A DNA stretch of 15,059 nt from a virus (lineage: Duplodnaviria; Heunggongvirae; Uroviricota; Caudoviricetes): IMG/VR virus record IMGVR_UViG_2609460125_000004. One strand, written 5' to 3'. The position numbers and the translations under genes are program-made. Under the pieces are notes generated by a model, which ran no database searches, was not told the DNA's origin, and saw only the letters and a program-made list of their open reading frames with translations. This document shows positions 446-1,800 of the stretch, piece by piece. How positions within the stretch are numbered: the stretch's first letter is position 1; every line of letters starts with the position of its first letter.

Positions 446-531
446 AGAATACTGTAGGTATTTTATTGTGTAAATACCCAAGGTATTTATTTTTGATGAA
501 ATAATGATAAACAAATGAATACAAAGGATAT
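446..531 (-). promoter_or_regulatory. OL/PL region: palindromic operators ATACTGTAGGTAT (449-461), ATACCCAAGGTAT (474-486), weaker ATACAAAGGATAT (519-531); PL -35 TTTACA (469-474) and -10 TATTCT (446-451) on the minus strand
   Basis: Two 13-bp sites with ATACC/GGTAT half-sites match the sites between cI and cro. The -35 and -10 are 17 bp apart and bracket an operator, as in lambda PL/OL1. Confidence 0.6.
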
Positions 532-619
532 TTATTTGTTTCGGTGTCTGCTTGTTCAGTGCTTTTTATGCGGGATATGTGAAGTGGATCCCGATAGCTA
601 TTGCTGCCGGGATTATGGG

Positions 620-988
620 TTAGTCAGCGAAGGTTAAGACGAGAATTACCTTAATGATGTCTGCTACAACAGACACGGCCATAGATAAACCAAAGACGAT
701 CCAAGCCATAGAGATGTCTTCACTACCATCGTATAGGGTTCCGTAATCACTGGTGTAAGGCGTAAATGTCGCGCCTTGATACAATAGGTATAAGCTTGAT
801 CCATAGAGGATAAATGCAGATATCCCTTGTATTGCTATGATCACTAGAATCATGAAACGAGCTGATCTATGCGCCCAAGCCTGGCTTATTTTTTCTGATA
901 GAGATTTCGCAATAAAAGCATGCGCTAAGCCGTAAATTGTTGAGATTGCCAACATCCCCAAAAAGCTTGCTATAGCGGTTCCAACCAT
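620..988 (-). CDS. Small inner-membrane protein (122 aa, about three predicted transmembrane helices), co-transcribed downstream of cI; function unknown
   Basis: ATG at 988 follows a strong Shine-Dalgarno (AAGGGGG) 18 nt after the cI stop. Three hydrophobic stretches (about residues 3-27, 45-70, 95-120). Occupies the rexAB position of lambda but does not resemble RexB as I recall it. Confidence 0.75.
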   Translation of the reverse strand: MVGTAIASFLGMLAISTIYGLAHAFIAKSLSEKISQAWAHRSARFMILVIIAIQGISAFILYGSSLYLLYQGATFTPYTSDYGTLYDGSEDISMAWIVFGLSMAVSVVADIIKVILVLTFAD

Positions 989-1006
989 AAGCGCCCCCTT
1001 GCGTGA

Positions 1007-1723
1007 TCAAACCAGTCTGAGTTTTGTCTCAATTGCAACGCCTATAATCTTGCAGTTTCCATTGATTGGCACGAGAGGCCATGCAGGATTAAGTCCCTTG
1101 AGGTATTTATTTCCGCCGTCGATTATCAGCTTCTTGAATGTTGCTTCGTTAGAGTCAGAAAGTTTTGCTATGACCAAGCTGCCGTTGATCGCCTCCCTTC
1201 CGGTATCGAAAAGAACGAATGTTCCCTCTGGAATGCTTAACCCAACCGGTGCCGTCATTGAATCACCTTCCACTTTAAGCCAGAACGCATTACCTTGAAT
1301 ATGCGCGTCAGACTCAAGCCAAACATCTATGTCTTTAATGGCGTATGGTTCGCATGCTTCACACCACGAGCCAGCCTGGATACTGCTTAACACCGGATAC
1401 CTCTTTCCTGCTCTGTATTCCCCTGCATACCTTACGTTGGCATCGCTCTTAAGGCTTTCTGCCTGTTCTGCAACCTTGGCAGCAATTGACTGGCTAAAAT
1501 CAGCAATTGAGACTTGCAACAGTCGTGCAAAACCAGATGCAACCTCAACGTTTAGCGCGTTTCTGCCATTAAGATAATGCCCTACCGCTCCTTGGGTGAT
1601 ACCCAGTTCATCAGCGATTGAGTATTGGGTTATTCCCAACTCTTTCTTTTTTGACTCATACAAAGCCTTAAGCCGCTTAGCGTCTTCGAGCTGTTCTGTC
1701 GTCAGTGATTTCTTATTTTCCAT
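1007..1723 (-). CDS. cI: CI-type prophage repressor (HTH DNA-binding domain plus S24 LexA-like autocleavage domain)
   Basis: N-terminus (LTTEQLEDAKRLKALYESKKKELGITQ...) resembles lambda cI. C-terminal domain (AGSWCEACEPY...FWLKVEGDSMT...TFKKLIIDGG..YLKGLNP...INGNCKIIGV) resembles 434 cI, including the catalytic Ser and Lys context. Confidence 0.93.
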   Translation of the reverse strand: MENKKSLTTEQLEDAKRLKALYESKKKELGITQYSIADELGITQGAVGHYLNGRNALNVEVASGFARLLQVSIADFSQSIAAKVAEQAESLKSDANVRYAGEYRAGKRYPVLSSIQAGSWCEACEPYAIKDIDVWLESDAHIQGNAFWLKVEGDSMTAPVGLSIPEGTFVLFDTGREAINGSLVIAKLSDSNEATFKKLIIDGGNKYLKGLNPAWPLVPINGNCKIIGVAIETKLRLV

Positions 1724-1729
1724 AGCTTA

Positions 1730-1800
1730 ATTCTAATAGCTAAGGTACTTAAACTAAAAATACCCTGAGTATTGATTGCTTTGAATACCTGTAGTATTCT
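1730..1800 (+). promoter_or_regulatory. OR region: operators ATACCCTGAGTAT (1760-1772) and ATACCTGTAGTAT (1785-1797); PR -35 TTGATT (1772-1777) and -10 TATTCT (1795-1800); candidate PRM -10 TAGAAT on minus (1730-1735) giving a near-leaderless cI mRNA
   Basis: Divergent cI/cro intergenic region with the same ATAC...GTAT sites as OL; PR spacing is 17 bp with an operator between the hexamers. Confidence 0.6.

What the first reader, a model, noticed from the sequence alone, without database searches (positions are those of the whole stretch)
446..1800. Hybrid repressor with a distinct operator family (ATACC-N3-GGTAT)
The repressor has a lambda-like N-terminal DNA-binding domain with a different recognition helix (ITQGAVGHYLNG versus lambda MGQSGVGALFNG) and a C-terminal domain close to 434 cI. 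Both flanking control regions carry 13-bp sites with ATACC/GGTAT half-sites (449-461, 474-486, 1760-1772, 1785-1797), unlike lambda, 434 or P22 operators as I remember them. This points to a separate immunity specificity, possibly created by recombination in the cI linker.
Basis: partly seen in the sequence, partly recalled or inferred. Interest (0 to 1): 0.45.

Follow-up and report, generated by a model that had tools for sequence, protein, structure and literature searches.

The report
Known HK620-type phage immunity switch
This is the repressor/Cro genetic switch of the sequenced coliphage HK620, whose operator sites are already annotated in GenBank, sitting here in what looks like a crippled prophage, so the finding is real but ordinary.

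Summary
The four ATACC-N3-GGTAT sites exist at the stated coordinates and are far beyond chance: 5 hits at one mismatch or fewer against 0.18 expected.

They are the cores of OL1, OL2, OR2 and OR1 of coliphage HK620 (GenBank AF335538, Clark et al. 2001). That record annotates six 17-bp operators, pL, pR, nutL, nutR and pRE, and all are base-for-base identical in the window. Cro is 100% identical and cI differs at two residues outside the recognition helix.

The same module occurs in HK140, HK630, mEpX2, Stx2c phages and 146 of 5,426 complete E. coli genomes. A paper using mEpX2 places it in an immunity group separate from lambda, HK022 and phi80.

The N-terminal domain is 53% identical to lambda cI. 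The C-terminal domain is 70% identical to 434-type cI and 38.5% to lambda.

The module is a lambda-type switch with the same 17-bp register and promoter geometry. Its half-site is (A/G)AATACC where lambda has TATCACC.

Side observations:
- IS911 separates nutL from N.
- A 77-bp ori deletion frameshifts gene O.
- The annotated OL3 fits the motif badly, and 517-533 fits much better.

The parts
1..334 (+). Right end of IS911 (3' part of the orfB transposase plus the terminal inverted repeat). It is context, not part of the switch. It cuts the leftward operon just beyond nutL.
   Evidence: 99.7% identical to the IS911 copy annotated in phage Sf6. Pfam rve, rve_2 and rve_3 match the 107-aa ORF. Phage homology starts at about 328-335.
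359..400 (-). nutL (boxA/boxB N-utilisation site)
   Evidence: Identical to the nutL feature annotated in HK620 AF335538. The boxB hairpin sequence matches the one in nutR.
439..474 (-). pL: -35 TTTACA, 17-nt spacer, -10 TATTCT
   Evidence: Identical to the HK620 pL annotation. Found independently by the promoter scan.
447..463 (.). OL1, a 17-bp dyad GAATACTGTAGGTATTT.
   Evidence: Identical to HK620 OL1. PWM score 19.8.
472..488 (.). OL2, a 17-bp dyad AAATACCCAAGGTATTT.
   Evidence: Identical to HK620 OL2. It is the best PWM score in the window, 22.0.
494..510 (.). OL3 as annotated in GenBank for HK620 (TGATGAAATAATGATAA). This assignment is doubtful.
   Evidence: Identical to the HK620 feature, but it scores -13.9 on the operator PWM.
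517..533 (.). Better candidate for a third OL site: GAATACAAAGGATATTT. It lies in the loop of the annotated tIMM hairpin (507-537).
   Evidence: PWM score 12.4, the fifth best 17-mer of the 15-kb window, with 0.3 expected per window by chance. One mismatch to AATAC-N5-GTATT. The hairpin has dG -7.9 kcal/mol and z -2.0.
620..988 (-). hkaS, a 122-aa ORF of unknown function with a hydrophobic sequence. It is co-oriented with cI and occupies the position that rexAB has in lambda.
   Evidence: Matches HK620 hkaS with 7 nt differences. No Pfam family above the curated threshold.
1007..1723 (-). cI repressor, 238 aa. It has a lambda-type helix-turn-helix N-terminal domain and an S24 self-cleaving C-terminal domain (Ala117-Gly118, Ser155, Lys197).
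   Evidence: 2 aa differences from HK620 cI (A66T, A128T). Pfam HTH_3 and Peptidase_S24. Aligns to lambda repressor 3BDN over its full length, E 1.4e-51.
1730..1758 (-). Inferred pRM: -35 TTTAGT (1758-1753), 17-nt spacer, -10 TAGAAT (1735-1730). The -10 ends 6 nt before the cI ATG, so the cI mRNA would be leaderless.
   Evidence: Read directly from the sequence. The cI ATG to OR3 gap is 10 bp in both lambda and the window. Not annotated in the HK620 record and not tested experimentally.
1734..1750 (.). OR3: TAATAGCTAAGGTACTT.
   Evidence: Identical to HK620 OR3. PWM score 11.0, the sixth best in the window, from a matrix that did not include it.
1758..1774 (.). OR2: AAATACCCTGAGTATTG.
   Evidence: Identical to HK620 OR2. 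PWM score 20.1.
1783..1799 (.). OR1: GAATACCTGTAGTATTC.
   Evidence: Identical to HK620 OR1. PWM score 19.4.
1772..1807 (+). pR: -35 TTGATT, 17-nt spacer, -10 TATTCT. It overlaps OR1 and the edge of OR2.
   Evidence: Identical to the HK620 pR annotation.
1830..2024 (+). cro, 64 aa, of the lambda Cro family, with recognition helix [12 protein letters not shown]
   Evidence: 100% identical to HK620 Cro. Pfam Cro PF09048, E 3.6e-26. 61% identical to lambda Cro.
2031..2082 (+). nutR and tR1
   Evidence: Identical to the HK620 annotated features.
2117..2411 (+). pRE (2117-2156, minus strand) and cII (2133-2411, plus strand)
   Evidence: pRE is identical to HK620. cII has 23 nt differences, clustered at its 3' end. 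Pfam Phage_CII, E 7e-45.

Best explanation
Window 335-2420 is the immunity region of coliphage HK620 (imm HK620). It is a lambda-type bistable switch carried in a P22-like prophage.

How it most likely works:
- cI dimers bind 17-bp dyad operators with half-site (A/G)AATACC(T/C). There are three sites at OR between the divergent cI and cro genes, and at least two at OL over pL.
- Occupancy of OR1/OR2 and OL1/OL2 blocks pR and pL.
- cI bound at OR2, centred at -43 from the cI start, probably activates a weak pRM. That promoter would make a leaderless cI-hkaS transcript.
- OR3, centred at -19, probably gives negative autoregulation.
- Cro, a lambda-Cro-fold protein, reads the same sites during lytic growth.
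- The S24 C-terminal domain of cI (Ala117-Gly118, Ser155, Lys197) would make the switch SOS-inducible through RecA-stimulated self-cleavage.

Specificity differs from lambda because half-site positions 1, 3, 4 and 8 differ while positions 2, 5, 6 and 7 are the same. In lambda, Gln44 and Asn55 of cI, and Gln27, Lys32 and Arg38 of Cro, read the shared positions, and all are conserved here. Ser45, Gly46 and Ala49 of cI, and Tyr26, Ser28 and Asn31 of Cro, are replaced.

Shown here: sequence identity to HK620, motif statistics, domain homology and promoter-operator geometry. Inferred: actual binding, cooperativity, pRM activation and the residue-to-base assignment. The last rests on lambda co-crystal structures recalled from the literature.
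For: - Identity to HK620: 97.9% over 2.1 kb.
- Regulatory sites: OL1-3, OR1-3, pL, pR, nutL, nutR and pRE of GenBank AF335538 are all identical in the window. Cro is identical and cI differs by 2 aa.
- Motif enrichment: 5 hits against 0.18 expected.
- Domain homology: cI has HTH_3 and Peptidase_S24, Cro matches PF09048, and cII matches Phage_CII. cI aligns with lambda repressor 3BDN at E 1.4e-51 and Cro with lambda Cro at E 5e-19.
- Half-site tables in the same register: window A2 10/10, T4 10/10, A5 10/10, C6 9/10; lambda A2 12/12, C4 12/12, A5 9/12, C6 11/12.
- Geometry: operator centres lie 19, 43 and 68 bp from the cI ATG, against 19, 42 and 66 bp in lambda.
- Covariation in a relative: phage Fostie has Ser45 where this cI has Gly45, and its sites are TAGTAC-N5-GTACTA at 24-bp spacing.
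- Experimental immunity grouping: mEpX2 carries this module at 97.5% identity, and its published cI qPCR primers match the window exactly. It is reported as a separate immunity group from lambda, HK022 and phi80.
Against: - I found no footprinting or gel-shift data for HK620 cI or Cro in the searchable literature. The original paper is not held. Operator assignments therefore rest on annotation and sequence logic.
- The annotated OL3 does not fit the motif, with a PWM score of -13.9.
- pR scores only 8 of 12 consensus positions and was missed by the promoter scan.
- The inferred pRM has a poor -35 hexamer.
- The prophage is probably defective (IS911 insertion, O frameshift), so the full lysis-lysogeny cycle may not run here.
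Confidence: 0.92

Rival explanations
1. A new immunity specificity, created recently by recombination between a lambda-like and a 434-like repressor gene within the linker.
For: The domain pattern is real. The N-terminal domain is closest to lambda among classical phages (52.7%) and the C-terminal domain is closest to 434-type cI (70.2%). The 434 similarity begins at the hinge.
Against: - The module is not new. It is identical in all regulatory sites to HK620, sequenced in 2001, and is present in 16 phage records and 146 complete E. coli genomes at 80% coverage or more.
- Identities of 53% and 70% (69.6% at DNA level for the C-terminal domain) rule out a recent lambda x 434 event.
- Phage Fostie has the same domain combination at 63% and 67% identity, so the architecture is an old lineage.
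- An Erwinia phage has a closer C-terminal domain (82%) than 434-type cI does.
Confidence: 0.03
2. A relic immunity module. The cI/operator set still represses and gives superinfection immunity, but it no longer controls a viable phage. In that case its present role is host protection rather than a lysis-lysogeny decision.
For: - IS911 sits between nutL and the position of N.
- Gene O has a 77-bp deletion in the ori iterons that shifts the frame.
- cI, cro and all the operators are intact.
Against: This concerns the state of this particular prophage, not what the element is. The window starts inside the IS, so whether N and the left arm survive is unknown. IS911 may carry outward transcription. 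It is compatible with the best explanation rather than exclusive of it.
Confidence: 0.6
3. The ATACC/GGTAT dyads are promoter-associated palindromes or chance AT-rich symmetry, not repressor sites.
For: Both O1 sites overlap the -10 hexamer TATTCT, and the regions are AT-rich.
Against: - Enrichment is about 28-fold over dinucleotide-preserving shuffles.
- Spacing is a regular 24-25 bp.
- The register and position are the same as the lambda operators.
- A relative with one changed helix residue has correspondingly changed dyads.
Confidence: 0.02

Closest known systems
Immunity region of coliphage HK620 (GenBank AF335538 / NC_002730; Clark, Inwood, Cloutier and Dhillon 2001, J Mol Biol 311:657). 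The same module is in HK140, HK630, mEpX2, HZ41 and Stx2c phages Stx2_EH1904 and Stx2_5044.
   Same: Gene order is nutL-pL/OL-hkaS-cI-OR-cro-nutR-cII. All annotated operators, promoters and nut sites are identical. Cro is 100% identical and cI 99.2% identical. Overall nucleotide identity is 97.9%, and 99.8% to the Stx2c phages.
   Different: There are 38 substitutions and two short indels over 2.1 kb, with two cI residues changed (A66T, A128T). The 3' end of cII is diverged. IS911 lies where HK620 has the nutL-N spacer. Downstream, O is of the IME10 type and carries a deletion.
Phage lambda immunity region (cI, cro, OR1-3, OL1-3)
   Same: - 17-bp dyad operators.
- Three operators between divergent cI and cro.
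- A 10-bp gap between the cI ATG and OR3.
- Operator centres within 1-2 bp of the lambda positions.
- cI N-terminal domain 52.7% identical and Cro 61% identical.
- Half-site positions 2, 5, 6 and 7 (A, A, C, C) shared.
- An S24 C-terminal domain with the Ala-Gly site and the Ser/Lys dyad.
   Different: - Half-site positions 1, 3, 4 and 8 differ: AAATACCT/C against TATCACCG.
- Recognition helices differ: cI S45G, G46A, A49H, L50Y, F51L; Cro Y26I, S28C, N31S, H35L.
- The C-terminal domain is only 38.5% identical.
- hkaS replaces rexAB.
- OL and OR are about 1.3 kb apart, against 2.4 kb in lambda.
434-type cI, taken from phage HK446, whose cI residues 2-70 are identical to the 434 repressor in PDB 1PER/1R69
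   Same: The hinge and C-terminal cleavage/oligomerisation domain are 70.2% identical, including SD-NVR, AGSWCEACEPY, VEGDSMT and NEATFKKL.
   Different: [quoted passage not shown] 434 operators (ACAA-N6-TTGT) are absent here. Cro is of the lambda fold family, not the 434 family.
cI/cro module of Escherichia phage Fostie (PP925832)
   Same: It has the same domain combination, with the N-terminal domain 63% and the C-terminal domain 67% identical. The recognition helix is QSAVGHYLNG against QGAVGHYLNG. It has a lambda-fold Cro and three dyads at 24-bp spacing between cI and cro.
   Different: The half-site is TAGTAC instead of (A/G)AATAC, so position 3 is G rather than A. It is presumably heteroimmune. 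Its record carries no switch annotation: the cI homologue is labelled 'hypothetical protein' and no cro or operators are marked.

Membership tests
HK620 immunity type (imm HK620) | Operator sequences identical to those annotated for HK620 | tested here: met
   OL1, OL2, OL3, OR1, OR2 and OR3 are base-for-base identical.
HK620 immunity type (imm HK620) | Same repressor and Cro DNA-reading surfaces | tested here: met
   Cro is 100% identical. cI differs only at residues 66 and 128, outside helices 2-3.
HK620 immunity type (imm HK620) | Homoimmunity with HK620, HK140 or mEpX2 and heteroimmunity with lambda, 434, P22 and others in plating tests | not testable with these tools
   Only literature is available. 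mEpX2, which carries this module, is stated to be a separate immunity group from lambda, HK022, phi80 and four mEp phages (PMC3442831).
Lambda-type cI/Cro bistable switch | Repressor with an N-terminal helix-turn-helix domain and a C-terminal S24 self-cleavage domain carrying an Ala-Gly site and a Ser/Lys dyad | tested here: met
   Pfam HTH_3 and Peptidase_S24. Full-length alignment to 3BDN. Ala117-Gly118, Ser155 and Lys197 are present.
Lambda-type cI/Cro bistable switch | Divergent cI and cro genes separated by three dyad-symmetric operators that overlap pR and pRM | tested here: met
   OR3, OR2 and OR1 lie at 1734-1799 between cI (ends at 1723) and cro (starts at 1830). pR overlaps OR1 and OR2. 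The inferred pRM -10 overlaps OR3.
Lambda-type cI/Cro bistable switch | Tripartite OL over pL | tested here: inconclusive
   OL1 and OL2 are clear. The annotated OL3 scores -13.9. The alternative at 517-533 scores 12.4 but lies 45 bp from OL2.
Lambda-type cI/Cro bistable switch | Cooperative repressor binding, pRM activation from OR2, and Cro preference for OR3 | not testable with these tools
   Only the geometry can be checked. OR2 is centred at -43 and OR3 at -19 from the cI start, against -42 and -19 in lambda.
Lambda immunity specificity (imm lambda) | Operators of consensus TATCACCGC-type half-sites and the recognition helix QSGVGALFN | tested here: not met
   Lambda has C at half-site position 4 in 12/12 half-sites, and the window has T in 10/10. 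The helix here is QGAVGHYLN.
434 immunity specificity (imm 434) | 434-type N-terminal domain and ACAA-N6-TTGT operators | tested here: not met
   The N-terminal domain is 27% identical in a forced alignment. The control regions carry AATAC dyads instead. Sf6 and HK446 carry the 434-type set.

The most novel reading that the evidence does not exclude
Two small things remain open.

(a) The third leftward operator of this immunity type may not be the GenBank OL3 (494-510). It may be the dyad at 517-533, which forms the loop of the tIMM hairpin 45 bp from OL2. That would be an OL layout unlike lambda's, and repressor binding and the end of the cI-hkaS transcript would then coincide.

(b) Lambda, HK620 and Fostie form a natural series. 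Changes at residue 45 of cI (Ser, Gly, Ser in different helix contexts) and at Cro residues 26, 28 and 31 track half-site positions 1, 3 and 4. This series could serve as a compact test set for recognition rules.
Probability: 0.3. Interest if true: 0.25.

Novelty: already known. Interest (0 to 1): 0.08.

Why it matters
It matters little beyond correct annotation. The window carries a well-sampled, modular lambdoid immunity cassette, imm HK620. The same cassette circulates among P22-like phages (HK620), HK97-like phages (HK140), other HK/mEp coliphages (HK630, mEpX2) and Stx2c-converting phages.

Its practical value is as a marker. It predicts which phages this strain should be immune to. Together with the IS911 insertion and the ori/O deletion, it flags the prophage as probably defective with immunity retained.

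The comparison of lambda, HK620 and Fostie operators and recognition helices is a tidy illustration of how immunity specificities diverge by a few residue and base changes. This principle is long established.

Tried and rejected
- **Fifth 13-mer hit, 779-791 inside hkaS.** Rejected as a possible internal operator. As a 17-mer it scores 3.2 on the PWM, and about 42 such sites are expected per shuffled window.
- **Source genome.** Two exact scans of the one-genome-per-species collection found nothing. One used the IS911/phage junction and the other the OR2-OR1 42-mer. No complete E. coli genome holds the whole window including the IS; the best covers 83% starting at position 328. The host remains unidentified.
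- **Original HK620 paper.** Not held. Full-text searches for HK620 with operator, repressor, Cro or immunity region returned no binding experiments.
- **Phage 434 sequence.** It did not appear in the rows listed for the phage collection, so HK446 was used as a proxy. Its cI N-terminal domain was first shown to be identical to the PDB 434 repressor.
- **Promoter scan.** It found pL but not pR (8 of 12 consensus matches) or pRM. Those two were placed by the HK620 annotation and by direct reading.
- **tIMM as an intrinsic terminator.** Support is weak: an AT-rich 8-bp stem, dG -7.9, z -2.0, and no clean U-tract. The terminator scan did not report it.
- **Not run.** The large protein-database searches and structure prediction were not used, because the DNA-level identity to an annotated phage settled the question.
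Full report
**1. Observation**

- 449-461 ATACTGTAGGTAT
- 474-486 ATACCCAAGGTAT
- 1760-1772 ATACCCTGAGTAT
- 1785-1797 ATACCTGTAGTAT

Only the second is a perfect ATACC-N3-GGTAT. The others each carry one mismatch. With one mismatch or fewer the pattern occurs 5 times in the 15-kb window against 0.18 expected, and 0 of 200 dinucleotide-preserving shuffles reach 5. Four of the five bracket a 238-aa repressor gene on the minus strand (1007-1723). That gene is followed on the plus strand by a 64-aa cro (1830-2024) and by cII (2133-2411). 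The quoted recognition helix is correct.

**2. What it is**

A megablast of 330-2420 against phage records gave 16 records covering at least 80% of the query. They include HK620 (97.9%), HK140 (98.0%), HK630, mEpX2, HZ41 and two Stx2c-converting phages (99.8%). The same module is in 146 of 5,426 complete E. coli genomes.

The HK620 GenBank record (AF335538; Clark et al. 2001) annotates nutL, pL, OL1-3, tIMM, hkaS, cI, OR3-1, pR, cro, nutR, tR1, pRE and cII. Mapping these onto the window shows every regulatory feature is base-for-base identical. Cro is 100% identical. cI differs at A66T and A128T only.

OR3 (1734-1750) was missed.

The published qPCR primers for mEpX2 cI match the window exactly. 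That paper states that mEpX2 belongs to an immunity group separate from lambda, HK022, phi80 and several mEp phages (PMC3442831). I found no footprinting of these operators in the searchable literature, and the 2001 paper is not held. 'Characterised' therefore means sequence annotation plus immunity grouping, not biochemistry.

**3. Proteins**

- cI has HTH_3 and Peptidase_S24 domains, Cro matches Pfam Cro (PF09048), and cII matches Phage_CII.
- cI aligns to full-length lambda repressor (3BDN, E 1.4e-51). Cro aligns to lambda Cro (E 5e-19).
- The cI N-terminal domain is 52.7% identical to lambda.
- The C-terminal domain is 38.5% identical to lambda but 70.2% identical to the cI of HK446. HK446 cI residues 2-70 are identical to the PDB 434 repressor.
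- The 434 similarity begins at the hinge (SDANVR against SDSNVR).
- The Ala-Gly cleavage site (117-118), Ser155 and Lys197 are present.

The identity levels (69.6% at DNA level for the C-terminal domain) exclude a recent lambda x 434 cross. Phage Fostie has the same domain combination at 63% and 67% identity. An Erwinia phage has a closer C-terminal domain, at 82%. The architecture is an old lineage within the usual lambdoid mosaic.

**4. Operators and mechanism**

I aligned the ten half-sites of OL1, OL2 and OR1-3 in 17-bp register. The consensus is (A/G)AATACC(T/C), with A2, T4 and A5 in 10/10 and C6 in 9/10. Lambda's twelve half-sites give TATCACCG, with A2 and C4 in 12/12. Positions 2, 5, 6 and 7 are shared, and positions 1, 3, 4 and 8 differ.

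From lambda co-crystal structures (recalled: Jordan and Pabo 1988; Beamer and Pabo 1992; Albright and Matthews 1998):
- cI Gln44 reads A2 and Asn55 reads base pair 6.
- Ser45 reads base pair 4.
- Cro Gln27, Lys32 and Arg38 read positions 2 and 5-7.
- Cro Tyr26, Ser28 and Asn31 lie over positions 1, 3 and 4.

In the window, Gln44, Asn55, Gln27, Lys32 and Arg38 are conserved. Ser45, Gly46 and Ala49 of cI, and Tyr26, Ser28 and Asn31 of Cro, are replaced. This fits the operator differences, but it is an inference.

Geometry is that of lambda:
- The cI ATG to OR3 gap is 10 bp in both.
- Operator centres lie 19, 43 and 68 bp from the cI start, against 19, 42 and 66 bp in lambda.
- pR (-35 TTGATT, -10 TATTCT) overlaps OR1 and OR2.
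- A -10 hexamer TAGAAT at 1735-1730 ends 6 nt before the cI ATG, implying a leaderless pRM transcript as in lambda (and direct reading).

The most likely mechanism is the lambda one: repression of pR and pL at O1/O2, activation of pRM from OR2, autorepression at OR3, Cro acting on the same sites, and RecA-dependent cleavage for induction.

**5. Independent support from a relative**

Phage Fostie's cI has QSAVGHYLNG, with Ser45 in place of Gly45. Its Cro helix is TQIAISKALRAGR. Its cI-cro intergenic region has three dyads of the form TAGTAC-N5-GTACTA at 24-bp spacing, with at least one more downstream of cI. A one-residue change in the helix goes with a change at half-site position 3. This supports the view that these dyads are the repressor's targets.

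**6. OL3**

Chance expectation is 0.3 and 0.7 per window. The GenBank OL3 (494-510) scores -13.9.

517-533 forms the loop of the annotated tIMM hairpin. That hairpin is weak (dG -7.9, z -2.0) and was not found by the terminator scan. The third OL site is therefore uncertain, and this is the only open point about the module.

**7. Surroundings**

- Window 1-334 is the right end of IS911, 99.7% identical to the copy in Sf6. It is inserted just beyond nutL, where HK620 has the spacer before N.
- Downstream, the window is a P22-like prophage: O, a DnaB-type P, nin genes, Q, lysis genes, terminase and portal. It is closest to IME10 (79% coverage, 97.4% identity).
- Gene O has a 77-bp deletion inside the ori iteron array relative to IME10. 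This splits O into two frames.
- The prophage is therefore probably defective while its immunity module is intact.
- Exact scans of species-representative genomes for the IS junction and for OR found nothing. No complete E. coli genome holds the whole window.

**8. Verdict**

The finding is real and correctly read in outline. It is the known HK620 immunity cassette, so novelty is 'already known' and interest is low.

Noticed in passing
window 1-334: The right end of IS911 (99.7% identical to the copy in phage Sf6) is inserted immediately beyond nutL. This separates pL/nutL from where the N gene lies in HK620. The window begins inside the IS, so the left arm is unseen.
   Followed up: partly
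window 2594-3407 (deletion after 2979): Replication gene O has a 77-bp deletion within the ori iteron array (TTGTCCAACGG repeats) relative to IME10. The deletion is not a multiple of 3, so O is split into two overlapping frames (2594-3007 and 2889-3407). The prophage is probably unable to replicate.
   Followed up: partly
window 494-510 and 517-533: The OL3 annotated in the HK620 GenBank record does not match the operator motif (PWM score -13.9). A much better dyad, GAATACAAAGGATATTT (12.4), lies 45 bp from OL2, in the loop of the annotated tIMM hairpin.
   Followed up: partly
L004 (phage Fostie PP925832) 1407-1500 and 2260-2335: Fostie carries a sister switch. Its cI helix is QSAVGHYLNG, it has a lambda-fold Cro, and it has TAGTAC-N5-GTACTA dyads at 24-bp spacing. 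In the record the cI homologue is labelled 'hypothetical protein' and no cro or operators are marked. A probably spurious ORF (1322-1504) is called over the cro gene on the opposite strand and over the operator region.
   Followed up: partly
window 620-988: hkaS is a 122-aa ORF with a hydrophobic sequence and no Pfam family above threshold. It lies downstream of cI in the position that rexAB has in lambda. It may be a prophage-expressed exclusion or membrane function.
   Followed up: no
window 2330-2411: Differences from HK620 cluster at the 3' end of cII (16 of the 38 substitutions lie in about 80 bp). This looks like a mosaic boundary where the window switches from HK620-like to IME10/Sf6-like sequence.
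   Followed up: no
window 779-791: ATACAATAGGTAT inside hkaS matches the 13-mer with one mismatch but fails as a 17-mer (PWM score 3.2). I judge it to be chance.
   Followed up: yes
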